Positions 1-56,135 of a DNA stretch of 64,000 nucleotides are shown here, one piece after another. The notes under the pieces were generated by a model. That model saw only the letters and a list, made by a program, of their open reading frames with translations, was not told the origin of the DNA and did no database searches. The DNA lies in the NCBI GenBank assembly GCA_965232545.1, contig OZ246979.1, forward strand, positions 5,734,077 through 5,798,076. Reading direction: 5' to 3'. The stretch comes from Candidatus Poribacteria bacterium. GTDB lineage: Bacteria; Poribacteria; WGA-4E; WGA-3G. Both the position numbers and the translations under genes were made by a program. Position 1 is the first letter of the stretch. Each line of letters starts with the position of its first letter.

Positions 1-2
1 AT

Positions 3-728
3 CTCGTTACGAATGTCCGCAGAGATCGTCGCTTTGCAACCCTTCTCATGCAAATTACGGCATCGGAAGAAGGCGTGCCCTTCAATATCCGAGATGAACG
101 GATCAGCGAACTCGCGACGTATGGGGTGATAGTCAAAGGTGTTGACAATCTCTGCGAAATCTTGAATCCTATCTATCTCTATTGTATCATACAAACTTTC
201 AAACCGCTGATAAACGGATTAGAACACCAATACCTCTCTGAAGACACCGATAGCGGTTTTCGAGATTATCTCACACCTACTGGACACATTGATATCATTC
301 CATTACTTGATAACTTTCGGGATTTCATCGGACGTGCGGGCTTCCAGATTTTGCAAGTGCCAGATACGCCGCAGGAGTCGGTCGGACGGTATCTCTTGTT
401 TGCTTATCTGGACCAATTCGTCAGGATCATAGGGGGTGTGATGCACGTTGAAGTGCAGACCGGACGCGGGCGATTGGATATGCTTATCACGCACAACCAG
501 CGAAAATACATTGTTGAGACGAAGGTGTGGAGAGGACGCAGTTACTATGCGTCAGGGAAAAGACAACTCGCCGCGTATCTTAAATTAGAAGGCGTAGCGG
601 AGGGATATTATATTGTGTTTGATCATCGAAGGACACCAGAGCCACGTGTAGAGACTGAAACGATTGAGGGAGTGACGGTCCGGAGTTACGTAATTCCTGT
701 GATACAGGAACAACCCTCATCTATCTAA
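3..728 (+). CDS. PD-(D/E)XK nuclease family protein, C-terminal part (5' end lies off-window)
   Basis: Reading frame is open from the window edge to the stop at 728. The motif GRGRLDMLITHNQRKYIVETKV and the overall pattern resemble the PDDEXK_9/DUF1703 C-terminal domain of AAA-ATPase-like proteins. Confidence 0.5.
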   Translation, partial: LVTNVRRDRRFATLLMQITASEEGVPFNIRDERISELATYGVIVKGVDNLCEILNPIYLYCIIQTFKPLINGLEHQYLSEDTDSGFRDYLTPTGHIDIIPLLDNFRDFIGRAGFQILQVPDTPQESVGRYLLFAYLDQFVRIIGGVMHVEVQTGRGRLDMLITHNQRKYIVETKVWRGRSYYASGKRQLAAYLKLEGVAEGYYIVFDHRRTPEPRVETETIEGVTVRSYVIPVIQEQPSSI

Positions 729-741
729 CGAGATTCGGAGC

Positions 742-3693
742 ATGCAGACGTATACAGAACAGAGATTTGAAGATCACATTGAAGAACACCTGAACCAGTC
801 GGACTACGAGTCGTTACAATCTGCCGACTATGATAAATCCCTCTGCCTGATACCCGATGAGGTTCTTCAGTTTATTCAGGACACCCAACCGGACGTATAT
901 CAGCGACTGGAACGCCAATACGGTGCGGAGACACCCGATAAACTCCTCGACCGTCTGAGCAAACAGATTGCGAGTCGTGGGGTGCTGGACGTGCTTCGGA
1001 AAGGGTTTAAAGATAGAGGTTGTGATTTTAAGCTTACCTACTTCCACCCCTCAAGCGGTATGAACCCCGACCATCGACGGCTTTACGAGCAGAACCGATT
1101 CTCCCTCATCCGACAACTGCACTACTCGCAGAAAAACGAGAAATCGTTGGATATGACTCTGTTCCTCAACGGGTTGCCGCTCGTGACAATGGAACTGAAG
1201 AACAGCCTCACCGGTCAGATAGTGACGGATGCAGAAAAGCAGTATCAGACGGATCGGGATCCGAGAGAACCGTTGTTCCATTTCAAGCGGTGTCTGGTAC
1301 ATTTCGCCGTCGGCAACGAGAAGGTCTCGATGACAACCCACCTGCAGAGAGACAAGACACGCTTCTTTCCGTTCAACAAGGACATCGAAAACCCCGTGAA
1401 CCCGAACGGACACAAGACCGCCTATCTCTGGGAGGACATCCTACACCCCGATAACCTGATTGAGCTAATTGACAACTTTATCCATGAGCAGGAGACCATA
1501 GAAAAGGTCTACGATCCCAAAATTAAAATGGTGAAAGATGTGAAGCACAACGTGCTTATTTTCCCGCGCTACCATCAACTGGACGTGATTCGTAAATTGC
1601 AAAAGGCTGTCCTGAAAGATGGTGCCGGGCATAACTACCTCATCCAACACACCACCGGTAGCGGCAAATCGAACTCCATCGCGTGGTTGGCGCATCTGCT
1701 GACGCATCTTTTCAGCTCCTCAACAGATACGAATCGGATCTTCGACTCCATCATCGTTGTGACCGATCGGCGCGTGCTTGACAAGCAGTTGCAGGATACA
1801 ATCAGGCAGGTGGAACAGGTCGAGGGTGTGGTGCATGCCGTTGAGAAGACTTCAGCACAACTCAGGGAGTTCCTTGAATCCGGTAAGGACATCATCATCT
1901 CGACGATTCAGAAATTCAGTGTGATTGCCGATGAGATTGGCAAACTTAAGGGCAAACACTTCGCCGTGATTATTGACGAAGCGCACTCTTCACAGAGCGG
2001 TGAGTCGGCGAGAAACCTCAGAACCTCGCTCTCGAAAGGGATTGCGGAAACGGTAGAGGAAGATGACCGCGACGAAGTATCGGATATAGACGCTCGGATT
2101 CTTGAGGAGATGGAACAGCGCAGAATGCAGGATCATATCTCCTATTTCGGTTTCAGTGGCACACCGAAAAACAAGACCTTAGAACTCTTCGGACGGAAGA
2201 AGAAAGACGGAACATTTGTCCCATCCCACGTCTATTCCATGCGCCAGAGTATCAGTGAAGGCTTTACACTCGACGTGCTACAGAACTACACCACCTTTAA
2301 GCGGTATTTTGAACTCGTCAAAAGTGTACCGGAAGATAAAGAATATGAGAAGGCGCGGACGCTCCGGACACTCACCAATTACGTTGACCTGCAACCCCAC
2401 AGCATTGAGACCAAGACCCGGATTATGTTGGAACATTTCACGGCACACACCGCAAAGACGATCGGTGACAGAGGGCGGGCGATGTTGGTTACGCCGTCCC
2501 GACTGCACTGTGTCAAATACAAGCAGGAATTCGATAGACAGATGAAGGAGATGGGGCTTTCCTACGGGTGTCTCGTAGCGTTCAGCGGCACTGTCCACGA
2601 CACCGACAACGGGCAAGATTACACGGAGGACGGGATGAATAACCTACCGCCGAGTGCCGCCATTGCAGACACCTTCAAGGATCCTCAGTATCGTATTCTA
2701 ATTGTCGCGAGTAAGTTCCAGACGGGTTTCGATGAACCGCTACTCCAGACGATGTATGTCGATAAGCGTCTGGACGGATTACAATGTGTTCAGACCTTGA
2801 GTCGCCTGAACCGTGTTACCGCAGGTAAAACCGATACGTTAGTGCTCGACTTTGTGAATGAACCCGAGCAGATACAGGAAGCGTTTCAGCAATACTATCA
2901 AACCACGAAACTCGCCGAGGGGACCGACCCGAATCAGTTGTATGACCTACAGCACCAGTTGGAGGGGTTTGACCTCTACAATGGAGAGATGATCGAGGAA
3001 TTCTGCAATATCTTTTACGATACGAATAAACCTGACGAACTGCTACAAGGAATTCTCGATGACGTTGTTGAGCGATGGAGAGCAATTGAAGCAGAGGACA
3101 GGGAGGCGTTTCGTTCTACCTTACAGAGTTACATTCGGCTCTACGGATACATCTCACAGTTGATTACCTTCACCGATGTGGCGTTGGAGAAGTTGTATAT
3201 ATTGGGTCGCAGTCTCAACAAGAAGTTACCGAAACGGGAACACCCCGACCTGCAAGATGTACTCGCGTCTGTTGATTTGGATTCATTCCGTGTGCAGAGA
3301 ACGCATGAGAGTCTACACCTCTCCCTGGATGCACGGGATAGCGAAGTCGAAGGGATCGGCAGCGATATCGCCGTCATCAGGGATCCTGAGCAGGATTTCC
3401 TCTCCAATATCATTGACGCGCTCAACAGTGCCTATCAGACGGATTTCACACCCGACGATAAGGTTGACCTTGAGACCCTCCAACAAAAAGTACACGAAAA
3501 CGAGGAACTTCGGCAGGTGATTGAAGGCGATAATTCGGAGAGCAACAAACGGTATAAGTTTGATGAGGTATTTGATGAAATCTTATTGGGTTTCGTCAAT
3601 AGTAAGTTGGATCTCTATAAGAAATTATCACAACCGGAGATTAAGGCAGATCTCAAGCGTCACCTCTATCAGGCGTATCTTGCACAACCCTAA
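742..3693 (+). CDS. hsdR: Type I restriction enzyme R subunit-like helicase-endonuclease (HsdR family)
   Basis: 983 aa. N-terminal PD-(D/E)XK nuclease motif D-x13-ELK (SLDMTLFLNGLPLVTMELKNS), SF2 helicase Walker A TTGSGKSNSIAW and DEAH box VIIDEAHSS. Overall architecture matches EcoR124I-type HsdR. No hsdM or hsdS in the window. Confidence 0.75.
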   Translation: MQTYTEQRFEDHIEEHLNQSDYESLQSADYDKSLCLIPDEVLQFIQDTQPDVYQRLERQYGAETPDKLLDRLSKQIASRGVLDVLRKGFKDRGCDFKLTYFHPSSGMNPDHRRLYEQNRFSLIRQLHYSQKNEKSLDMTLFLNGLPLVTMELKNSLTGQIVTDAEKQYQTDRDPREPLFHFKRCLVHFAVGNEKVSMTTHLQRDKTRFFPFNKDIENPVNPNGHKTAYLWEDILHPDNLIELIDNFIHEQETIEKVYDPKIKMVKDVKHNVLIFPRYHQLDVIRKLQKAVLKDGAGHNYLIQHTTGSGKSNSIAWLAHLLTHLFSSSTDTNRIFDSIIVVTDRRVLDKQLQDTIRQVEQVEGVVHAVEKTSAQLREFLESGKDIIISTIQKFSVIADEIGKLKGKHFAVIIDEAHSSQSGESARNLRTSLSKGIAETVEEDDRDEVSDIDARILEEMEQRRMQDHISYFGFSGTPKNKTLELFGRKKKDGTFVPSHVYSMRQSISEGFTLDVLQNYTTFKRYFELVKSVPEDKEYEKARTLRTLTNYVDLQPHSIETKTRIMLEHFTAHTAKTIGDRGRAMLVTPSRLHCVKYKQEFDRQMKEMGLSYGCLVAFSGTVHDTDNGQDYTEDGMNNLPPSAAIADTFKDPQYRILIVASKFQTGFDEPLLQTMYVDKRLDGLQCVQTLSRLNRVTAGKTDTLVLDFVNEPEQIQEAFQQYYQTTKLAEGTDPNQLYDLQHQLEGFDLYNGEMIEEFCNIFYDTNKPDELLQGILDDVVERWRAIEAEDREAFRSTLQSYIRLYGYISQLITFTDVALEKLYILGRSLNKKLPKREHPDLQDVLASVDLDSFRVQRTHESLHLSLDARDSEVEGIGSDIAVIRDPEQDFLSNIIDALNSAYQTDFTPDDKVDLETLQQKVHENEELRQVIEGDNSESNKRYKFDEVFDEILLGFVNSKLDLYKKLSQPEIKADLKRHLYQAYLAQP

Positions 3694-3821
3694 ATATCTG
3701 TAGGAAAAACCACCAAATCCGGACCTCTAAAGTTTGTAGTAGTGCGGTTCATCGCACGTTCTTGCTGACCGTCGACTGCTGATTGCTGACCGCCGATAGT
3801 TAATAACTTTCCATCTTTCTC

Positions 3822-3850
3822 TTGACTGTTTTTACCAAATACCCTATGAT
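3822..3850 (+). promoter_or_regulatory. sigma70-like promoter upstream of hflK (TTGACT-17-TATGAT)
   Basis: TTGACT at 3822-3827, a 17-nt spacer, then TATGAT at 3845-3850, about 185 nt upstream of the hflK start. Confidence 0.4.
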
Positions 3851-4034
3851 TGTAGACGTTTATTGTTACCTACATCCTTAAATGTCATAGGACCTACGCA
3901 CGCGCGCTTTTGTAGCACAAACTGTTAGTTTGTGTCGGTATCCGTATTAGTTTTTAGCCGCTCGTAGTCTAACAGATCGGATTACAGTCCAAACTGCGTA
4001 AGTCCTGTATCGGAGAAAAAAAGGAGAACTCTTC

Positions 4035-5003
4035 ATGCAAGACCTCCAGGACTTGATAACACAGCAACCCTACACGAATCTCATCACTCCCAAACGGATT
4101 CTGTTTGCGGTTCTCGGTGTGATCGTCTTAGCCTGCTTAGCGACAAGTTTTTATATGGTCGAAGCAGACGAAATCGCTGTCGTCCTGATGTTCGGTAAAT
4201 CTGTCCGACAAGCCGAACCGGGACTCCATTTCAAATTACCCCTCGGTATTGAGAGAGCCATTAGCGTGCCCGTCCGGAAAGTCTTCAAAGAGGAATTCGG
4301 TTTTCGGACGCTGAGAGCCGGGGTTCGGACGCAGTATGACACCCGCGATTATGCCGACGAGTCTTTATTACTAACCGGTGATCTAAGCATCGCCGATGTC
4401 GAGTGGGTGGTCCAGTATAAGGTTAAAGATCCGAAAAATTTTCTGTTTTCTGTCAGAAATCCAAGACAGGCTTTACGCGACCTCTCGGAATCCGTGATGA
4501 GCCGGATCATTGGCGACAGGACTGTCACTGAAGTGCTAACCGTCGGGCGTATTGAGATCGCCGCGGAGGTTGAAAAACATCTGCAAGAATTACTGGATCT
4601 CTACCAGACCGGATTAGATGTCGCAACGGTAACCTTGCAGGATGTGAATCCACCAGAAGCCGTGAAGTCCGCCTTTAACGCCGTCAATGAGGCGAAGCAG
4701 GAGAAAGAACGGTTAATCAACAATGCATGGCGCGATTACAACCAATCTGTCCCGAAAGCCAAAGGTGTGGCGATACAGCGGATTTCGGAAGCACAGGGTT
4801 ACGCGCTGAAACGCGTTAACGAGGCGCAAGGCGATGCAGATCGGTTCAAATCGATTCGCACGGAATATCAAAAAGCGAAAGAGGTTACCCGGCGCCGACT
4901 CTATCTCGAAGCGATGCGAGAGGTGTTACCGCAGGTGAAAGAGATTTATATCATTGACGGTAACGCCACCGCACCTATCCCACTTTTGCAACTCAAGGAA
5001 TAA
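4035..5003 (+). CDS. hflK: FtsH protease modulator HflK (SPFH/band-7)
   Basis: N-terminal transmembrane segment plus an SPFH domain, immediately followed by hflC. Confidence 0.85.
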   Translation: MQDLQDLITQQPYTNLITPKRILFAVLGVIVLACLATSFYMVEADEIAVVLMFGKSVRQAEPGLHFKLPLGIERAISVPVRKVFKEEFGFRTLRAGVRTQYDTRDYADESLLLTGDLSIADVEWVVQYKVKDPKNFLFSVRNPRQALRDLSESVMSRIIGDRTVTEVLTVGRIEIAAEVEKHLQELLDLYQTGLDVATVTLQDVNPPEAVKSAFNAVNEAKQEKERLINNAWRDYNQSVPKAKGVAIQRISEAQGYALKRVNEAQGDADRFKSIRTEYQKAKEVTRRRLYLEAMREVLPQVKEIYIIDGNATAPIPLLQLKE

Positions 5004-5017
5004 GAACCGTAAGGTAA

Positions 5018-5244
5018 GTTAGACGCGAAAACGAAGCCTGCAACAACGGCGCGGGGTTTTTGCTTGGGCGTTTCTTCAACTCGAACACAGAAAGCGTCAA
5101 ATCACACATCCCGTTACTTATCCGCAAGGTAAAATTAGGAATCGAGTTAGACGCGAAAACGAAGCCTGCAACAACGGCGCGGGCGACTCGAACACAGAAA
5201 GCGTCAAATCACACATCCCGTTACTTATCCGCAAGGTAAAATTA
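5018..5244 (+). repeat. Tandem duplicated leader module (about 100 nt x2) immediately upstream of the hflC start
   Basis: Unit 1 is 5018-5136, unit 2 is 5146-5244. Each ends in CCGCAAGGTAAAATTA. Unit 1 carries an extra 24-nt insert, GTTTTTGCTTGGGCGTTTCTTCAA. Same family as the 43113-43279 repeat. Confidence 0.8.
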
Positions 5245-5248
5245 AAAA

Positions 5249-6211
5249 ATGAAATCGAAAACAGTTCTTATACCCTTGATTGTTATTGCAGTTGTGGTGC
5301 TGCTAATTGTATCCGGTGTGTTCTATACCGTCCATGAAGGTGAACAGATCGTAATTACCGAATTCGGTCGCCCTATTGGTCAGCCCATTGTCACTGCGGG
5401 TTTGAAAATAAAAACACCCTTTATTCAGCAGGTACACCGCTTTGAAAAGCGCGTGCTTGAATGGGATGGATCCGCTAACCAGATCCCGACAAAAGACAAG
5501 CGATTCATCTGGTTGGATACCACAGCGCGGTGGCGTATTAAAGACGCTCTCAAATTCTATCAAGCACTCGGAACCGAACAGTTCGCACAATCTCGGTTGG
5601 ATGACATTATTGACTCCGCAGCGCGGGATTTAGTGACAGCACAACTCTTGATTGAAGTCGTGCGGGATTCAAATCGGGTGTTAAGTCTCGATCTGGAAGT
5701 CCTTGATGGTGAGGAGGGACAAACCGGTGAACCGTTGGAAGAGATTCAGATCGGTCGGGAACGGATTACACGTATGATCCTTGAGAAGGTCCAAGAGACC
5801 GTTCCACAATTCGGCATTGAACTCGTCGATGTTCAGATAAAACGGATTAACTATGTAGACGAGGTCCGCAAGAAAGTCTTTGACCAAATGATTTCGGAAC
5901 GGCAACGGATCTCTGAGAAATATAAATCCGAGGGGGCAGGCGAAGCCGCTGACATCATGGGACAGAAGCAGAAGGAGTTAGAGCGGATCCAATCTGAAGC
6001 GTATAAGGAAGCCGAGCAGCTTAAAGGTGACGCAGATGCGCAAGCCATTCAGATTTACGCCGAAGCACACGGTCAAGACCCAGAGTTTTACGCCTTTCTC
6101 CAGACGCTTGAAACCTATCGTCAGACGACCGGCGAGAGCACGAAACTCATCTTAACAACGGATAGCGACCTCTATCGGTATCTCAAAAGCAGTGAACCGC
6201 TCCGACGTTGA
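5249..6211 (+). CDS. hflC: FtsH protease modulator HflC
   Basis: N-terminal TM segment, band-7 domain, and the conserved hflK-hflC gene order. Confidence 0.85.
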   Translation: MKSKTVLIPLIVIAVVVLLIVSGVFYTVHEGEQIVITEFGRPIGQPIVTAGLKIKTPFIQQVHRFEKRVLEWDGSANQIPTKDKRFIWLDTTARWRIKDALKFYQALGTEQFAQSRLDDIIDSAARDLVTAQLLIEVVRDSNRVLSLDLEVLDGEEGQTGEPLEEIQIGRERITRMILEKVQETVPQFGIELVDVQIKRINYVDEVRKKVFDQMISERQRISEKYKSEGAGEAADIMGQKQKELERIQSEAYKEAEQLKGDADAQAIQIYAEAHGQDPEFYAFLQTLETYRQTTGESTKLILTTDSDLYRYLKSSEPLRR

Positions 6212-6334
6212 GCCTTGCTTCTATAACATGAGTACCGTATTTGTAGCGTAAACTGTTAGTTTGCGCCTGATGGGATACAATCAAAATAAGGTTTCAATAA
6301 ATGTTTCGGTAATTCCATGTTTCCCCCAGACCCG

Positions 6335-6397
6335 GGTAGGCGAGGTTTCTAACCTCGCCGGTGCAGAGTGTACAATTAATTCTAAAGTTTACCATAG
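6335..6397 (+). repeat. REP/terminator-like hairpin element (GGCGAGGTT-tct-AACCTCGCC plus CTCTTTAGAG...ATCTACCATAG tail)
   Basis: One of eight related copies (6335, 9475, 13487, 16104, 20636, 27169, 42949, 49228); five lie just downstream of plus-strand gene ends. Confidence 0.7.
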
Positions 6398-6743
6398 TTT
6401 GTAGCACCAGTCTTACTGTAGCGCAAACTGTTAGTTTGCGGCACCGGTCTGACGTGTGGACCAGACCAACATTTCAGTTGAGGTTTTCGGTTTAGCAAAA
6501 CTGTTCTCACTGTAGCGCAAACTGTTAGTTTGTAGCACCAGTCTTACTGTAGCGCAAACTGTTAGTTTGCGGCACCGGTTGGCACAAAAATTCGATATAA
6601 GCATACCAAAATCTGACGTGTGGACCAGACCAACATTTCAGTTGAGGTTTTCGGTTTAGCAAAACTGTTCTCACTGTAGCGCAAACTGTTAGTTTGTAGC
6701 ACCAGTCTCACTGTAGCGCAAACTGTTAGTTTGCGGCACGCGG
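6398..6743 (+). repeat. TGTAGC-box array; a 131-bp unit tandemly duplicated with a 164-bp period
   Basis: CTGACGTGTGGACCAGACC...TGTAGCGCAAACTGTTAGTTTGCGGCAC occurs at 6449-6579 and 6613-6743. At least eight TGTAGC boxes sit 17 to 20 nt apart. Each box contains the hairpin CAAACT-GTT-AGTTTG. Confidence 0.8.
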
Positions 6744-6753
6744 AGGTTGAAAC

Positions 6754-7284
6754 ATGAGACGAATTCGTTATTGCGTCGCTATGAGTCTCGACGGCTATAT
6801 CGCTGGACCCAACGGGGAATTCGATTGGATTGTCATGGATCCCGATATCGACTTCGCCGGAATGACCGAGCAGTTCGACACCTATCTACTCGGTAGACGG
6901 ACGTTTGAAGTCACGCGTGGGCACGAAGAGGCGGCGATGCCCGACGGAGAAACGTTCGTGATCTCGCGGACGTTACAACAGAGCGACCACGAGGATGTCA
7001 CAATCGTCGGTGAGAATTGGAAACAGGTCGTGCAGTCGCTCCGAGAGGAAGAAGGGAAAGACATCTGGTTGTTCGGTGGAGGCTCCCTATTTCGGAGTTT
7101 CGCCGAAGAGGGATTCGTTGACACGGTGGAGGTCGCTATCATCCCAATTGTGCTCGGTGGTGGTATTCCGCTCATTGAGGAACCGTCCGAGCAGATCCAA
7201 CTGACGTTAAAAGATCACACGGTGTACGGGAAAACGGGGACCGTTGGGTTGGTATACACCGTGAACAAGCCAAGCCAACCGTGA
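6754..7284 (+). CDS. Dihydrofolate reductase family protein (RibD C-terminal domain-like)
   Basis: 176 aa. Motifs CVAMSLDGYIAGPNGEFDW and LFGGGSLFRSF are typical of the RibD_C/YwjB family. Confidence 0.75.
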   Translation: MRRIRYCVAMSLDGYIAGPNGEFDWIVMDPDIDFAGMTEQFDTYLLGRRTFEVTRGHEEAAMPDGETFVISRTLQQSDHEDVTIVGENWKQVVQSLREEEGKDIWLFGGGSLFRSFAEEGFVDTVEVAIIPIVLGGGIPLIEEPSEQIQLTLKDHTVYGKTGTVGLVYTVNKPSQP

Positions 7285-7541
7285 GAAACCTCGCCTACCG
7301 TAACCTCTTTGTAGCACAACCTAAAAGTTTATGCTACAATAGATTTCCGCCGCGAATGTTTAAGTCGAACGCCTGTTAAAAAGGTTCCGTTATCTATAAA
7401 CTTGACGGATGGGTAATGAATTACCCTACTACAAACAATGGAATCTCACCAAGAGCGGAGGGCGTTTTGTTATCTGTTGTTCCTGAGATGTCTATCTATT
7501 TTCACAGCTGCGATAATACTTCAATACGAATGGTTTCACCT

Positions 7542-7572
7542 CCGATAACTGACAACTGATAACTGACAACTA
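7542..7572 (+). repeat. Heptamer direct-repeat array (CTGAYAA x4)
   Basis: CCGATAACTGACAACTGATAACTGACAACTA lies immediately upstream of the GTG start at 7579. Confidence 0.6.
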
Positions 7573-7578
7573 TTTTCC

Positions 7579-9468
7579 GTGAAGCGTCAACTCTCTCCTC
7601 TCAGTTTAAAAGCCGTTTGCATCGGACTCCTGCTGATTCCAGCGAATGCGATGTGGCAGATGATGGGGTTACGCTGGGACATCGCGCACATGTCGATGAT
7701 CTCACTGCTCTATAACACGATCACGCTCCTGTTCGTGCTGACAATCATCAATCGCTTCGCGAAAAAAGTCTCGCCGCAATTCTCTCTTTCCACTGCCGAA
7801 CTCCTGACGATCTATGTAATGTTGTGCCTCTCGACCGCTATCGGTGGGCACATGTGCGTGCAGATCCTCCTCCCGATTATCAGTTACGCATTCGCCTATG
7901 CATCGCCAGAGAACGATTGGCAGTCCCTGTTTTGGCACTATGTCCCGTCATGGGCATCCGTCACCGATAAGCGAGGACTCGCAAACTTTTTCGATGGTGG
8001 CTCTACGTTCTACCCGCACCTTGAGGCATGGAGCACCCCGTTGTTATGGTGGGGACTCTTTCTCGCCGCACTGTTTTCGGTCATGCTCAGTATCAACTTC
8101 ATCTTCCGAAGGCAGTGGACCGAAAATGAGAAGTTGAGTTATCCACTGATCCAGTTGCCGTTGGCGATGGCGAATCCGAGGAGCGGGTTCTTCCGTAGCA
8201 AGGCGATGTGGATCGGGTTCGGAGTTGCGGCTGCTATTGATCTCCTCAACGGGGTGAATTACCTGTTCCCACAGGTGCCACGACTCAGTGGTATCCGCGC
8301 GTATGACATCGCCGACTTCTTTACCGTCCGTCCATGGAACGCCATTACGTGGTTCCCCATCGGTATCTATCCATTCGCTGTTGGATTGGCGTTTTTTATG
8401 CCGTTGGAGTTGTCGTTTTCGTGTTGGTTCTTTTACCTATATTGGCAGGCGTTCCGCGTATTGGGAAGTGCCGTCGGATTGACAGCACCGTTTCCGTATG
8501 CCGAGGAACAATCTTTCGGAGCATATATCGGTATCGGTCTGGTTGCGGTGTGGAGTGCGCGTCGCTACTTGACGCAAGTGCTCCGTAGGCTGTTTGGCGC
8601 GCGATCTACACTTGATGACGGAGATGAACCGATCTCTTACCGTGCCGCGGTGACATGGATGTTGCTGAGTATGGTATTCCTTGTTGTTTTCTGTTACAAA
8701 CTTGGGATGTCGTTGTGGGTCATTGCGACCTTTTTTGGGTTGTTCTTCGGGTTAGCGACAGGGATTACGCGGATGCGTGCCGAACTCGGATCACCCGTTC
8801 ACGACCAGCATTATGCCGGTCCCGACAGGATGATGTATTCGGTCTTCGGCGCGAAACGGCTCGGTGCGAGTAATCTGACGGGGTTGGCGTATCTCTACTT
8901 TTTCAATCGTGCCTACGATTGCCTGTTGATGCCGCACCATCTTGAGGGGTTGAAGATAGCCGAGCGTGCCGACATCGAAAACAAGACCTTCGCGAAGGCG
9001 GTCATCATCGCTATCGGTGTGAGTATCGTTGCGACGATCTGGGCATATCTACACGTCTCATATCAGGACGGTGTCTATACGGCATGGGCAGGCAGAGAGA
9101 CTTTCAGTCGGCTCGGTAGACGACTCGTCCAACCCGCGGGTCCCGATACCGCAGTGCTGAGCGCAGTCAGTGTGGGGACGGTTATGGCGATTCTCTTGGC
9201 TTTTTTCCGTAGTCGGTGGATGTGGATGCCATTCCATCCAGCGGGTTACGCCGTTACCAGCACCTTCACGATGAATTTCTTCTGGTTTTCGCTCCTCGTG
9301 AGTTTCATCTTGAAATGGATTATTACCAGACATGGCGGCATCGGCGGTTTTCGGAGGGCGGCACCTTTTTTCCTCGGTCTCGTGTTGGGTGAATTCGTCG
9401 TGACGACCTTCTGGGGCACCGTGGCGATTCTATTCCGTGTGGAGACCTATATTACGATCAATTTGTAA
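7579..9468 (+). CDS. Large polytopic membrane protein, uncharacterised family (paralog of 37489-39408)
   Basis: 629 aa, at least 12 predicted TM helices. About 45% identity to the 639-aa protein at 37489. Shared motifs include MPHHLEGLK and RAAPFFLGLVLGEF. The GTG start is uncertain. Confidence 0.6.
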   Translation: MKRQLSPLSLKAVCIGLLLIPANAMWQMMGLRWDIAHMSMISLLYNTITLLFVLTIINRFAKKVSPQFSLSTAELLTIYVMLCLSTAIGGHMCVQILLPIISYAFAYASPENDWQSLFWHYVPSWASVTDKRGLANFFDGGSTFYPHLEAWSTPLLWWGLFLAALFSVMLSINFIFRRQWTENEKLSYPLIQLPLAMANPRSGFFRSKAMWIGFGVAAAIDLLNGVNYLFPQVPRLSGIRAYDIADFFTVRPWNAITWFPIGIYPFAVGLAFFMPLELSFSCWFFYLYWQAFRVLGSAVGLTAPFPYAEEQSFGAYIGIGLVAVWSARRYLTQVLRRLFGARSTLDDGDEPISYRAAVTWMLLSMVFLVVFCYKLGMSLWVIATFFGLFFGLATGITRMRAELGSPVHDQHYAGPDRMMYSVFGAKRLGASNLTGLAYLYFFNRAYDCLLMPHHLEGLKIAERADIENKTFAKAVIIAIGVSIVATIWAYLHVSYQDGVYTAWAGRETFSRLGRRLVQPAGPDTAVLSAVSVGTVMAILLAFFRSRWMWMPFHPAGYAVTSTFTMNFFWFSLLVSFILKWIITRHGGIGGFRRAAPFFLGLVLGEFVVTTFWGTVAILFRVETYITINL

Positions 9469-9676
9469 AACTTCCCCTGCTGGCGAGGTTTCCTAACCTC
9501 ACCTATGAAGTAAACGTAGGAAGGATCTCTGAATCCCGATTACTGATGCCTAATCCTGAAAATCCTGATTCAGACTATGAATACCTACGTTACCCGATTA
9601 AATTCCTAATCTTCATTAGGGGTGTTATGTTTATAAATAGATGGCAACTTGCGTTATTATAGGACTTGGAGGTGAT

Positions 9677-10219
9677 ATGAAAGTCTTGGTCGGTTCCGAA
9701 AATCCAGTGAAAATTCAGAGCGTTCGGGACGGTTTTCTAACATTTTTTGAACATGTAGAGGTCGAAGGTATAAATGTTGATACAGGTGTTGCTGACCAGC
9801 CTATGAATGATGAGACATTTGAGGGTGCCAAACATCGCGCCGAGAACGTTAAGCGAATAAACGATCAACAGAACCTCGGCGCGACGTTTTTTGTCGGAAT
9901 TGAGGGAGGCGTTCTTCAACTGCAGGAGAGATGGTTTAGTGTGAATGTCGTTTATATTTTAGATAACCACAATCGAGACAGTTTTGCCACAACAGGACTT
10001 TATGAATTGCCGGGTGCGATATCGGAAGAACTTCTGATTGGAAAAGGATTAGGACGTGCCATGGGTGAACTTGCCAATGATACCTACGCCGCACGCGAAC
10101 ATGGCACCGTTGGGTTTTTGACAAATGGTAAGATGGATAGGTTCCAAAATCAGGTCCAAGGCATAACTTTAGCATTAATCCCTTTTGTGAATGACACCCT
10201 TTATTTTCCTTCTTCCTAA
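9677..10219 (+). CDS. yjjX: Inosine/xanthosine triphosphatase (YjjX family non-canonical NTPase)
   Basis: MKVLVGSENPVKIQSV aligns with the E. coli YjjX N-terminus. GGAGGT RBS is 5 nt upstream of the ATG at 9677. The 12-codon extension to 9641 in the ORF track is unlikely. Confidence 0.7.
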   Translation: MKVLVGSENPVKIQSVRDGFLTFFEHVEVEGINVDTGVADQPMNDETFEGAKHRAENVKRINDQQNLGATFFVGIEGGVLQLQERWFSVNVVYILDNHNRDSFATTGLYELPGAISEELLIGKGLGRAMGELANDTYAAREHGTVGFLTNGKMDRFQNQVQGITLALIPFVNDTLYFPSS

Positions 10220-29519: not shown

Positions 29520-29774
29520 ATGCAAGAATCTCCTTTTTACCAACGCGTCATGCAACGCGGCATAGAACAAGGCATAGAACAAGGTATTGAACAAGGTATT
29601 GAACAAGGAGCAACACGCGCCACGCGCGAAGCTGTTCTCAAACTCCTGCGGCACCGATTTGGCGAAGTTCCCGAATCCATCACGAGCCAGATGACCGAAC
29701 TCCGCCATATTTCACAGTTAGAGGCGTTCTTTGAGAAGGTGATGAACGCAGAAACACTCGATGATATTCAATAG
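29520..29774 (+). CDS. DUF4351-like small protein (Rpn/YhgA-family C-terminal domain) with (IEQG)4 repeat
   Basis: MQESPFYQRVMQRGIEQGIEQGIEQGIEQG...LLRHRFGEVPE. GGAGG sits 8 nt upstream of the ATG at 29520. Four 12-bp DNA repeats at 29566-29616. The 100-codon upstream extension in the ORF track is rejected. Confidence 0.55.
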   Translation: MQESPFYQRVMQRGIEQGIEQGIEQGIEQGATRATREAVLKLLRHRFGEVPESITSQMTELRHISQLEAFFEKVMNAETLDDIQ

Positions 29775-50966: not shown

Positions 50967-51584
50967 TCAAGCGGAACAACATCGGACTTCTAAGCGAATA
51001 CCGACGGGCGATGCCATAGTCGCCGCTACTGGGACACCTAAGTGTCCAAGATACTTTTGTCTTATATTGATTGCGCCTACACCATCGCGATGATATGTAA
51101 AGCCACATTTACAGGTGTAGTTACGATTAGTAGGCTTCTTTCTATTGCCACAATGCGGACAAGTCTGCGAAGTGTAAGACTCATCAATCACTTCCACTTT
51201 GATACCTAAAGTCCTGGCTTTGTAGGTGATGAGTTGTGTGATTTTACCAAATGCCCACTGGTGTAACTTTTGATTCGCATGCTTGCCATAGTTGATATTT
51301 TCACGAATGCCAGTTAAATCGCCAAGCACAATGGTGCCAATACCACGCGATTCACACAACTTTACAAACTTTGTAGTGTGTTTGTGTAAGCCGTCCATTA
51401 TCTGGTTATCAATCTTTTTGATGCGTTTCCATTTGCGTTTCACCAGATGCCACCAGCGTTGAGAATGACGTTCGCACCTATCTATTTTCTTGCCAAATGA
51501 CGCGATTACCTTATGCCTCAACCGGTATAGACTTCTAATATACCGCCCATTAAAGATGTTAGTAATCACACCATCATGACTCAC
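50967..51584 (-). pseudogene. tnpB: N-terminally truncated TnpB (IS200/IS605 OrfB) remnant
   Basis: Retains RuvC-II IVLGDLTGIRE, zinc finger CPHCG...CKCG and RuvC-III HRDGVGAINIR, but lacks the RuvC-I region. Downstream hairpin CTCCAGTC-taaa-GACTGGAG at 50915-50934. Confidence 0.65.
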
Positions 51585-54699: not shown

Positions 54700-56135
54700 A
54701 GCTTAAATTTATCAATCTTCCGTCAAAACCCCATGCTTTAGCTTGGGGATGTAGACGGCGTATGAGTTTGTCGTTGAAAAAAGATTTGACATTTCGTGAA
54801 AAATGTCGTATAATTGATAGTATCAAGTTGGCAGACAGTTGAAGCGTAATCGCAAGGTTACGTGTCTGCCTACCCACTTCAACGGGGTTAAAGACTTGAT
54901 ACTTGATAGTCCATGAAAACCTATAAATACCCATTAGGGAAACAATCTAATACGATCCGCATTGGCAATCTGCTTGACGACATGTGGCAAGTTCATGAGT
55001 ATTTCCACAAGTGGCAAGACCAAAGATACAAAGACGGCTTGCCGTATGCGAACTATAACGCCATGTCTGCTCACGTGAAAACGTTGAAACGCACCACACA
55101 CCCACATTGGAAGGCGTTGCCAAGCCAAGCGATTCAAGCAGAACTCGAACGTATTGATAATGCGTATCAAAGGTTCTTTGATAAACTCGGTGGCAAGCCC
55201 CATATTAAAGCCCGCCATAAGTTTAAGTCTATCACACTTAAACAAACTGGATATAAACTGACGAATAATCGTATTACGCTCACATTTCGTCAATGGGCTA
55301 AGGGTAAGTGGAGGTTTGATAAAGTGCCATATACTTTCCATAAACACCGGCAATGGCATGGAACTATCAGTCGTATCACGATTAAGCGAGATAACTGCGG
55401 TGATTATTGGATTTGCATAACAACCACCTACACAGATTTCAAACTGCTGCCAGCAACAGGTAAAAGCGTTGGGGCAGACTTCGGTATGAAAGACGCGTAC
55501 TTGACACTTAGCACGGGTAAGAAGAAACAACACCCACAACCCTTGAAACAGTCCTTGAACAAACTTCGGTCTCTCAACAAAGACCTTTCTCGTAAAGTGA
55601 AAGGTTCTAACGGTTGGTGGCGGTGTGTGAGCCAAATCGCCCGTCTGTATCGGAAAATAAGCAACCAACGCAAAGATTTCCATTGGCAACTCGCCTCTGA
55701 ACTTTGTAAGAAGTTTGATACGATTGCGATTGAAACGCTGAACCTTGACGGTATGAAACGCTTGTGGGGACGTAAAGTCTCCGACCTTGCGTTCTATCAG
55801 TTTGTTGAGATATTGAAGTATAAGTGTCAAAAACATAAGCGTCTTTTGAAGCAAGTCGGTCCATGGACGGCGACAACGAAACCGTGTAGTGAGTGTGGTT
55901 TTCATAACGAAACGCTAACTTTGGACGATAGGCAGTGGACGTGTCCTGACTGTGGTTCACACCACGATAGAGACATCAACGCTGCGATAAACATATTGCG
56001 GGCAGGGATAGCCATCACTTGACGATATGCCTTGTCTCTGACAAGGGAAATGCCCGCAGGTGGAGCGACAGTTAGACGGTGGACTCTCCGAGAAAACCGC
56101 AGTTGCGACGAAGCCGAAGCCCCTGCCTTTAGGTA
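54700..56135 (+). mobile_element. IS200/IS605-family tnpB-only element (IS1341-like)
   Basis: Left-end hairpin CCCCATGCTTTAGCTTGGGG at 54729-54748, which is the reverse complement of the IsrB-element end hairpin. Consensus promoter TTGACA-17-TATAAT at 54785-54813. Right-end hairpin CCTTGTC-tct-GACAAGG at 56030-56046. Confidence 0.7.
54913..56022 (+). CDS. tnpB: TnpB (RNA-guided RuvC-like endonuclease, IS200/IS605 OrfB)
   Basis: RuvC-I GADFGM, RuvC-II IAIETLNLDGMKR, zinc finger CSECG..CPDCG, RuvC-III HDRDINAAINI. Confidence 0.85.
   Translation: MKTYKYPLGKQSNTIRIGNLLDDMWQVHEYFHKWQDQRYKDGLPYANYNAMSAHVKTLKRTTHPHWKALPSQAIQAELERIDNAYQRFFDKLGGKPHIKARHKFKSITLKQTGYKLTNNRITLTFRQWAKGKWRFDKVPYTFHKHRQWHGTISRITIKRDNCGDYWICITTTYTDFKLLPATGKSVGADFGMKDAYLTLSTGKKKQHPQPLKQSLNKLRSLNKDLSRKVKGSNGWWRCVSQIARLYRKISNQRKDFHWQLASELCKKFDTIAIETLNLDGMKRLWGRKVSDLAFYQFVEILKYKCQKHKRLLKQVGPWTATTKPCSECGFHNETLTLDDRQWTCPDCGSHHDRDINAAINILRAGIAIT

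What the first reader, a model, noticed from the sequence alone, without database searches (positions are those of the whole stretch)
1..3693. Orphan HsdR-like helicase-nuclease directly downstream of a PD-(D/E)XK (DUF1703-type) protein, with no methyltransferase or specificity genes in view
The 983-aa protein has the nuclease D...ELK motif, Walker A and a DEAH box of type I R subunits. However, it is followed by hflKC, not hsdM/hsdS. The gene 14 nt upstream encodes the C-terminal PD-(D/E)XK domain of an AAA-ATPase-like protein. If hsdM/hsdS are not just off-window, this pairing of two nucleases plus an ATPase could be a separate defence module. Type I loci are known to host inserted abortive-infection genes.
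Basis: partly seen in the sequence, partly recalled or inferred. Interest (0 to 1): 0.5.

Follow-up and report, generated by a model that had tools for sequence, protein, structure and literature searches.

The report
Type I restriction operon with embedded nuclease
The "orphan" restriction gene is the last gene of an ordinary three-part type I restriction-modification operon of a sponge symbiont (Poribacteria) whose other two genes lie just off the window, and the gene in front of it is an uncharacterised ATPase-nuclease that was inserted into the operon and may be an extra anti-phage gene.

Summary
Window 742-3693 encodes an intact 983-aa HsdR. The gene ending at 728 is the C-terminal winged-helix and PD-(D/E)XK part of an ATPase-nuclease. 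hflK and hflC follow, and the window holds no hsdM or hsdS.

The "orphan" reading fails. In 33 Poribacteria loci with the orthologous hsdR, plus three metagenome contigs, hsdS lies upstream on the same strand wherever enough upstream sequence is held. hsdM lies further upstream where the locus reaches that far. The closest relatives (94-95% HsdR identity) read hsdM ... hsdS, ATPase-nuclease, hsdR, hflKC.

The hsdS|hsdR junction has three states: empty, filled by this gene, or filled by an Rpn-family nuclease gene plus a remnant of this gene. The hsdM-hsdS gap carries known defence cargo such as pAgo, HEC-03, PD-Lambda-4 and SIR2-STAND.

The embedded gene is AAA_35 plus DUF8371, not DUF1703. 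It is an ORC/Cdc6-like AAA+ ATPase with an intact nuclease motif. It belongs to a large paralogous Poribacteria family that mostly occurs as solo genes. Distant members replace the nuclease with TIR. No defence library holds the family. It is a plausible but unproven single-gene defence candidate.

Verdict: a known kind of locus, of modest interest.

The parts
1..728 (+). 3' part (last 241 codons plus stop, reading frame from nt 3) of a ~539-codon gene for an AAA_35 ATPase, winged helix and DUF8371 PD-(D/E)XK nuclease. The N-terminal ATPase part lies off the window.
450..524 (+). Catalytic core of the PD-(D/E)XK domain: E150 (450-452), D159 (477-479), E172 (516-518), K174 (522-524).
   Evidence: E150 and E172 are invariant, and D159 and K174 nearly invariant, across 41 family members at 21-95% identity.
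729..741 (+). 13-nt spacer between the embedded gene and hsdR. It descends from the last bases of hsdS and the hsdR ribosome-binding region (aacGAGrt...).
   Evidence: Junction alignments of filled and empty loci.
742..3693 (+). hsdR, the restriction subunit of a type I R-M system. It has an N-terminal PD-(D/E)XK nuclease, an SF2 DEAH motor and a C-terminal helical domain.
   Evidence: Orthologues at 72-95% identity in 32 Poribacteria loci are preceded by hsdS wherever upstream sequence is held.
3694..4034 (+). Intergenic region that ends the hsd operon. It holds a hairpin at 3742-3757 and the best sigma-70-like match of the region at 3822-3850, ahead of hflK.
   Evidence: These are consensus matches only, and their number is not above shuffled expectation.
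4035..6211 (+). hflK (4035-5003) and hflC (5249-6211). These are conserved chromosomal neighbours that mark the right edge of the locus and are not part of the system.
   Evidence: The same neighbours follow hsdR in about half of the related loci.

Best explanation
Window 742-3693 is the R subunit gene of a conventional type I restriction-modification operon of a Candidatus Poribacteria genome. The order is hsdM, variable cargo, hsdS, embedded gene, hsdR. The window starts inside the embedded gene, so hsdS (expected just left of the window start) and hsdM (about 6 kb or more further left) are cut off.

HsdR would work as in other type I enzymes. The M2S1 complex reads the target and methylates it. 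On unmodified DNA, HsdR's DEAH motor translocates DNA and its N-terminal PD-(D/E)XK domain cuts. This is inferred from family membership.

The gene ending at 728 encodes a 539-aa single-chain protein: an ORC/Cdc6-like AAA+ ATPase (AAA_35), a winged helix, and a catalytically intact PD-(D/E)XK nuclease (DUF8371). It was inserted exactly at the hsdS|hsdR junction in an ancestor of part of the Poribacteria. The insertion duplicated about 75 nt of the junction. The gene is kept under purifying selection in one clade and was replaced by an Rpn-family nuclease gene in another.

My preferred reading of the embedded gene, at about 0.5, is an autonomous ATP-switched nuclease that adds a second layer of defence and is co-transcribed with the R-M genes. 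ATP binding or oligomerisation of the ORC-like module on DNA would license the C-terminal nuclease. Shown: the gene order in relatives, the domain folds, motif conservation, the insertion history, and the effector swap to TIR. Inferred: co-transcription, the ATP-gated nuclease, and the anti-phage role.
For: Operon context:
- Of the 33 related loci, 30 reach upstream of hsdR, and all but L028 (broken hsdR) show hsdS sequence upstream on the same strand. In L015 and L030 only the Rpn gene is in view. Among the 33, 21 also show hsdM.
- Three metagenome contigs (L041-L043) repeat the order hsdS fragment, AAA gene, hsdR, hflKC. L041, the only one reaching further upstream, also shows hsdM and hsdS.
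- L001 reads hsdM 1987-3765, hsdS 6763-8280, AAA gene 8361-9980, then hsdR and hflKC.

Junction states and history:
- 16 loci are empty, 4 carry the AAA gene, and 9 carry Rpn/Transposase_31 plus a 60-100-nt 3' remnant of the AAA gene.
- Left of the AAA gene lie the hsdS 3' end and about 55 nt of the hsdR 5' end. Right of it lie about 15-20 nt of the hsdS tail and then hsdR.
- The HsdR tree places the filled loci and the remnant-bearing loci in neighbouring clades.
- dN/dS is 0.12-0.23 for the full gene and 0.07-0.08 for the window part.

Defence hot spot:
- The hsdM-hsdS gap holds HEC-03A/B, PD-Lambda-4_A, short pAgo with REase-APAZ, SLFN-pAgo, SIR2 with the PDC-M54A STAND protein, and PDC-S11.
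- Rpn proteins are antiphage toxins (PMC10400941).
- Type I R-M systems often carry embedded genes, and such embedded genes often proved to encode defence (bioRxiv 10.1101/2024.01.29.577857).

The protein:
- The C-terminal domain matches McrC, Can2 and BamHI.
- Walker A, Walker B and the E..D..ExK nuclease motif are conserved across members at 24-82% identity to the reference.
- Distant members carry TIR_2 instead of the nuclease, or after it.
- Immediate neighbours of solo copies include type IIG, type I and type IV R-M genes, CARF proteins, a caspase and ABC-ATPase defence genes. They hit 174 PADLOC families among 103 neighbours. A control of 46 window ORFs hit 21 families, mostly TnpB.
Against: - The exact HsdR protein is not in the look-up collection, so the operon is inferred from genomes at 94-95% HsdR identity.
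- TIGR00348 scores below its trusted cut-off.
- The embedded gene has no hit in PADLOC 2.0 or NCBIfam, no relative among viral contigs, and no literature.
- About 90% of family copies are solo genes, many among metabolic genes.
- The neighbour-enrichment test is crude. It counts families rather than genes and uses a small control.
- No experiment supports nuclease or ATPase activity.
Confidence: 0.8

Rival explanations
1. The embedded AAA_35/DUF8371 gene is not a defence gene. It is one copy of an expanded paralogous family with another role, such as DNA repair or recombination, regulation, or a selfish gene. It merely landed in a recombination-prone slot of the type I operon.
For: - The family is very large in Poribacteria: 3460 hits at E<=1e-3, and the best 120 clusters are all at least 70% identical.
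- There are several copies per genome, for example P0082 and P0117 on one 4.36-Mb contig.
- Most copies are solo genes among metabolic genes, sometimes at orthologous sites (L034 and L040).
- Only 3 of 80 metagenome copies sit in the hsd locus.
- The insertion is flanked by a duplicated target.
- Comparable unexplained expansions are known for DUF1703 ATPase-nucleases in the symbiont Cardinium (PMC6387759) and in Bacteroidetes (PMC3424549).
Against: - Solo paralogs share no sequence beyond the start and stop codons, and no terminal repeats were seen.
- The gene is under purifying selection.
- The effector domain swaps with TIR.
- Neighbours are enriched for R-M and defence hits relative to the window control.
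- The same slot is otherwise occupied by an Rpn antiphage toxin (PMC10400941).
Confidence: 0.35
2. One reading: HsdR and the ATPase-nuclease form a self-contained two-gene defence module that works without a methyltransferase or specificity subunit.
For: The two genes are 13 nt apart on one strand, and the window holds no hsdM or hsdS.
Against: - The pairing occurs in only 4 of about 30 informative loci, and 16 loci have hsdS abutting hsdR.
- In all loci with the pairing, hsdS lies immediately upstream, and L001 and L002 also show hsdM.
- The ATPase-nuclease family is otherwise found without any HsdR.
Confidence: 0.03
3. In this particular genome the upstream hsdS or hsdM has been lost or broken, leaving a decaying remnant of the system.
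For: The locus is recombination-prone. L028 has a rearranged, truncated hsdR. L031 shows frame breaks. Several loci carry hsdS fragments.
Against: The window's hsdR is full length with all motifs. Its closest relatives keep intact hsdS, and L001 and L002 keep intact hsdM.
Confidence: 0.07

Closest known systems
Type I restriction-modification systems with embedded genes (for example prrC in EcoprrI, and the 'guilt-by-embedding' cassettes of Payne et al. 2024, bioRxiv 10.1101/2024.01.29.577857)
   Same: The operon reads hsdM, hsdS, hsdR on one strand, with extra same-strand genes nested between the subunits. Many of those genes are known defence systems.
   Different: The embedded gene here is not PrrC or RloC, and it is not an ABC-ATPase. 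It matches no PADLOC or NCBIfam defence model. Unlike PrrC, its family is mostly found outside type I loci.
EcoR124I-type HsdR (PDB 2w00)
   Same: It has an N-terminal D..ExK nuclease, an SF2 motor with Walker A and DEAH, and a C-terminal helical domain. It matches at E 2e-17.
   Different: Similarity to EcoR124I HsdR is significant but low (66 bits, best stretch 130 residues). It scores below the TIGR00348 trusted cut-off.
COG1672 / Arch_ATPase (PF01637) plus DUF234 proteins (structures 2qen, 2fna)
   Different: The Pfam families differ (AAA_35 plus DUF8371). Only weak sub-threshold ATPase_2 hits appear, and only in some distant members.
AAA-ATPase_like (PF09820) plus PDDEXK_9/DUF1703 (PF08011) proteins
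   Same: The domain order is the same, and the family is likewise multi-copy with unconserved context (PMC3424549, PMC6387759). One distant relative, P0180, scores above both cut-offs, so the families are remotely related.
   Different: The window protein scores 18.6 bits on PDDEXK_9, below the 25.5 cut-off. The full-length orthologues do not hit PF09820.
STAND/Avs-type immune NTPases and McrBC
   Different: There is no repeat-type sensor domain, the protein is only about 540 aa, and it is closer to ORC/Cdc6 than to NB-ARC or NACHT. Unlike McrBC, it is a single chain with no GTPase.

Membership tests
Type I R-M system, HsdR subunit | N-terminal PD-(D/E)XK nuclease motif (D..E-x-K) | tested here: met
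   D137 and E151-L-K153. Pfam HSDR_N at 7.3e-15, above its cut-off.
Type I R-M system, HsdR subunit | SF2 helicase-like motor with Walker A and a DEAH box | tested here: met
   GSGKS at 306-310 and DEAH at 412-415. SWI2_SNF2, ResIII and T1R_D3-like all score above their cut-offs. PADLOC REase_I at 7.8e-52.
Type I R-M system, HsdR subunit | Passes the curated HsdR model (TIGR00348) | tested here: inconclusive
   224.5 bits against a cut-off of 284.55, aligned over nearly the whole model.
Type I R-M system (whole system) | hsdM and hsdS encoded with hsdR | tested here: inconclusive
Wherever orthologous loci reach far enough upstream, hsdS is present (the exception is L028, whose hsdR is broken), and hsdM is seen in 21 loci. 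This includes the 94-95% relatives L001, L026 and L041.
Type I R-M system (whole system) | Target-specific m6A methylation and ATP-dependent cleavage | not testable with these tools
   Needs methylome data or biochemistry.
AAA_35 (PF14516) plus DUF8371 (PF28130) proteins | C-terminal DUF8371 domain | tested here: met
   Precomputed Pfam on orthologues that are 95% identical to the window fragment (P0001) lists PF28130. The local Pfam copy lacks this model.
AAA_35 (PF14516) plus DUF8371 (PF28130) proteins | N-terminal AAA_35 P-loop domain | tested here: inconclusive
   This part is off the window. It is present in the orthologues L001 and L026 (9.7e-12 and 9.4e-14, above the cut-off).
AAA-ATPase_like (PF09820) plus PDDEXK_9/DUF1703 (PF08011) | PDDEXK_9 domain above the gathering score | tested here: not met
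   18.6 bits against a cut-off of 25.5.
AAA-ATPase_like (PF09820) plus PDDEXK_9/DUF1703 (PF08011) | PF09820 ATPase domain in the full-length protein | tested here: not met
   No PF09820 hit in L001 or L026 full-length proteins. Only distant members touch it.
PD-(D/E)XK nuclease superfamily | Restriction-endonuclease-like fold with conserved acidic and lysine residues | tested here: met
Known type I-embedded abortive-infection genes (PrrC, RloC, AbiL and similar) | Match to the corresponding defence models | tested here: not met
   No PADLOC hit at E<=0.01 for the full-length orthologue L001. Only chance-level hits appear for the window fragment and L026.
STAND / Avs immune NTPases | NB-ARC or NACHT-type NTPase plus a C-terminal repeat sensor | tested here: not met

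The most novel reading that the evidence does not exclude
AAA_35 plus DUF8371 proteins may be an undescribed class of single-chain immune proteins. An ORC/Cdc6-like ATP switch with a winged helix would sense foreign DNA and license a C-terminal effector. That effector is a PD-(D/E)XK nuclease here and TIR in distant members. The class would be massively expanded in sponge symbionts, and the copy embedded in the type I operon would act as a second layer, or as a back-up when the restriction enzyme is inhibited.
Probability: 0.4. Interest if true: 0.55.

Novelty: new member of a known kind. Interest (0 to 1): 0.3.

Why it matters
For the scan, this removes a false lead: the HsdR is not orphan, and the two-nuclease module is an effect of where the window starts.

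What remains is a concrete, testable defence candidate, AAA_35 plus DUF8371. It is absent from PADLOC 2.0 and NCBIfam. It is found embedded in a type I operon whose other slots hold pAgo, HEC-03, PD-Lambda-4, SIR2-STAND and Rpn. The family is very large in Poribacteria.

If it protects against phage, it would add a compact ORC-like ATPase-nuclease to the defence catalogue. It would also help explain one of the gene-family expansions typical of sponge symbionts, which are already known to be rich in R-M and other defence genes (PMC5649159, PMC5099237).

Tried and rejected
- An exact-sequence look-up of the window's HsdR found nothing, so the true upstream DNA could not be fetched.
- A viral-contig scan for the ATPase-nuclease family found no relative.
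- Literature searches for AAA_35 or PF14516 returned only noise or nothing.
It was repeated with Poribacteria members only.
- I looked for transposon ends around solo paralogs. Similarity stops at the start and stop codons, and no shared flanks or terminal repeats appeared. A mobile-element reading therefore gains no support, although paralogs at about 70% identity would have lost such signals anyway.
- I considered that the duplicated hsdR 5' end left of the embedded gene is a functional leader ORF coupled by a GTGA overlap, as seen in L026. I rejected this because the frame is broken in L001 and partly deleted in L002.
- I considered that "ccctcatct", shared by the hsdS tail and the embedded gene's tail, marks the recombination junction. 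The PSS tail is native to solo paralogs too, so this is at most microhomology.
- The promoter and terminator scan gave counts no higher than in shuffles.
- The PADLOC neighbour test reports families per set, not hits per gene. It supports enrichment only qualitatively.
Full report
**What is in the window.** ORF 742-3693 (+) encodes 983 aa. It has Pfam HSDR_N, SWI2_SNF2/ResIII and T1R_D3-like domains. PADLOC gives REase_I at 7.8e-52. TIGR00348 aligns over nearly its whole length but scores below its cut-off, 224.5 against 284.55 bits. The protein matches EcoR124I HsdR in the PDB at 2e-17.

The reading frame ending at 726-728 is open from nt 3, so that gene runs off the window. The spacer to hsdR is 13 nt. 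hflK and hflC follow and pass their equivalog cut-offs. tblastn with Poribacteria HsdM and HsdS finds nothing in the whole window, even at E<=0.01.

**Where it comes from and what lies upstream.** The exact HsdR is not in the look-up collection. A genome scan found 33 loci, 30 of them labelled Candidatus or uncultured Poribacteria, with orthologues at 72-95% identity.

tblastn mapping of all loci shows hsdS sequence upstream of hsdR on the same strand wherever the locus reaches upstream. The exceptions are L015 and L030, where only the Rpn gene is in view, and L028, where hsdR is broken. hsdM lies further upstream in 21 loci.

In L001 (95% HsdR identity, 97% for the upstream protein, 99% HflK) the order is as follows:

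| Gene | Coordinates in L001 | Support |
|---|---|---|
| hsdM | 1987-3765 | PADLOC MTase_I, 6.5e-252 |
| TnpB | 4151-5260 | Pfam OrfB_IS605, |
| small antitoxin-like ORF | 5627-5953 | Pfam dnstrm_HI1420, |
| GxxExxY/PDDEXK_3 | 6097-6630 | |
| hsdS | 6763-8280 | PADLOC Specificity_I, 3.6e-112 |
| embedded gene | 8361-9980 | |
| hsdR, hflK, hflC | downstream | |

L002 and L026 show the same core order, as do three metagenome contigs. It rests on relatives, because the window's own upstream DNA could not be fetched.

**The junction has a history.** The hsdS|hsdR junction exists in three states:

- **Empty.** The hsdS stop lies about 4 nt from the hsdR start (16 loci).
- **Filled by the ATPase-nuclease gene.** This is the state of the window, L001, L002 and L026.
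- **Filled by an Rpn/Transposase_31 gene.** In most of these loci a second copy of that gene's C-terminal region follows. All carry a 60-100-nt remnant of the 3' end of the ATPase-nuclease gene directly before hsdR (9 loci).

L023 is a fourth variant, with an Rpn gene and an hsdS fragment but no remnant.

In L001 and L026 the inserted gene is flanked by a duplication of the junction. On the left lie the hsdS 3' end, its stop codon and about 55 nt of the hsdR 5' end. On the right lie the last 15-20 nt of hsdS and then the real hsdR.

The duplicated hsdR start is in frame in L026 but frameshifted in L001, so it is a relic and not a leader ORF. An HsdR tree puts the filled loci and the remnant-bearing loci in neighbouring clades, and most empty loci elsewhere.

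The insertion is therefore old. It was later replaced by Rpn in one clade and probably deleted cleanly in a few lineages. In the filled clade the gene is under purifying selection, with dN/dS of 0.12-0.23 for the full gene and 0.07-0.08 for the window part.

**The operon is a defence hot spot.** The gap between hsdM and hsdS carries cargo that differs among genomes:

- HEC-03A/B (2.2e-144 and 4e-27)
- PD-Lambda-4_A
- a short pAgo with REase-APAZ (1.7e-159 and 7.6e-169)
- a SLFN-pAgo (1720 bits)
- SIR2 with a PDC-M54A STAND protein
- PDC-S11

The SLFN-pAgo in a Poribacteria R-M operon of this kind has already been noted in bioRxiv 10.64898/2026.05.29.728809. Rpn proteins are antiphage toxins with intragenic antitoxins (PMC10400941). 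Type I systems are known to carry embedded genes frequently, and embedded genes often encode defence (bioRxiv 10.1101/2024.01.29.577857).

**What the embedded gene encodes.** Full-length orthologues are 539 aa and carry AAA_35 (PF14516) and DUF8371 (PF28130). PDDEXK_9/DUF1703 and NERD score only below threshold, and PF09820 is not hit. One distant relative, P0180, does pass both DUF1703-type models, so the families are remotely related.

An alignment of 40 members at 24-82% identity to the reference P0001 keeps these features:

- Walker A (APRQxGKTT)
- Walker B (DE)
- R173
- the nuclease residues E448, D457 and E470-x-K472

**Distribution of the family.** A search of 90%-identity clusters gave 3460 hits, and the best 120 clusters are all at least 70% identical. 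The few that carry a source name are labelled Poribacteria. Several share a contig, so there are multiple paralogs per genome.

A search of 50%-identity representatives gave 2466 clusters at E<=1e-3. Full-length relatives at 25-40% identity occur in Nitrospinota, Planctomycetota and uncultured bacteria.

Sampled solo copies lie among metabolic genes, sometimes at orthologous sites. Of 80 metagenome copies, only three are the hsd-locus copy.

Two points favour a conflict role:

- **Effector swapping.** Distant members replace the nuclease with TIR_2 (P0181, P0227) or add TIR after it (P0140).
- **Neighbour content.** The 103 distinct immediate neighbours of solo copies include type IIG, type I and type IV R-M enzymes, CARF proteins, caspases and ABC-ATPase defence proteins. 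They hit 174 PADLOC families at E<=1e-8. A control of 46 ORFs from the rest of the window hit 21 families, mostly TnpB/Cas12f-like.

The neighbour comparison is qualitative only.

**Mechanism.** For HsdR I infer the standard type I mechanism from membership. For the embedded protein I propose an ATP-gated nuclease. The ORC-like module with its winged helix would bind DNA and switch or oligomerise with ATP, and the C-terminal PD-(D/E)XK domain would then cut.

Its tight spacing suggests co-transcription with hsdS and hsdR. It lies 13 nt before hsdR in the window, and about 80 nt after hsdS in L001 with a GGAGG Shine-Dalgarno sequence.

I put the defence role at about 0.5. The main rival, at about 0.35, is a non-defence or selfish paralog that landed in a recombination-prone slot. 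This resembles the unexplained DUF1703 expansions in other symbionts (PMC6387759; PMC3424549).

**Verdict.** This is a conventional type I R-M operon cut by the window edge, with an embedded, uncharacterised ATPase-nuclease. The kind of locus is known. The embedded family is annotated only as domains of unknown function and is absent from the defence libraries tested. Interest is modest.

Noticed in passing
L004, L007, L008, L011, L023, L024 between hsdS and hsdR (e.g. L004 8476-9889): A full Rpn/Transposase_31 gene is followed by a separate second copy of its C-terminal ~95 residues (DUF4351-like). This resembles the RpnS intragenic antitoxin arrangement described for E. coli Rpn antiphage toxins. 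L019 and L033 also carry the Rpn gene, but no downstream C-terminal copy was detected there.
   Followed up: partly
L026 2163-5549; L041: A 1128-aa SLFN/AlbA_2-GHKL-PIWI protein (PADLOC pAgo, 1720 bits) is embedded upstream of hsdS in the same operon. A SLFN-pAgo in a Poribacteria R-M operon is already reported in a 2026 preprint, which also describes the SLFN module fused to HsdS. L022 4886-7258 and L024 4663-7167 may be such fusions.
   Followed up: partly
L045 5479-7068: A 71%-identical paralog of the ATPase-nuclease lies about 1.2 kb upstream of hflK/hflC with no detectable hsdR or hsdS. Either the R-M genes were lost there or a different paralog occupies the site.
   Followed up: no
L048 and L057 (one 204-kb metagenome contig); L047 and L058 (one 55-kb contig): Two family copies lie 34 kb apart on the same contig. 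The L048 copy is directly downstream of a 1032-aa type IIG restriction-methyltransferase (819 bits).
   Followed up: no
window 54913-56022 (+); 51027-51533 (-); 29550-29768 (+): There is a TnpB/OrfB_IS605-type gene (48% identical to the TnpB inside the L001 hsd operon), a weak second TnpB-like stretch, and a short stretch similar to the C-terminus of the Rpn/Transposase_31 protein (E 8e-12).
   Followed up: no
window, one ORF among 3700-64000 (not located): One window ORF hits the PADLOC mad2 methyltransferase model (1.1e-19) but no type I or II MTase model. It is not similar to the Poribacteria HsdM by tblastn.
   Followed up: no
P0180 (993 aa), Potamilus streckersoni assembly: A relative of the family is annotated in a freshwater mussel genome. 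It has a duplicated ATPase region and scores above threshold on both PF09820 and PF08011. This could be contamination or horizontal transfer.
   Followed up: no
L028 9839-11520; L031 533-3567: The hsdR orthologue is rearranged and truncated in L028 and interrupted by frame breaks in L031, so the system decays in some lineages.
   Followed up: no
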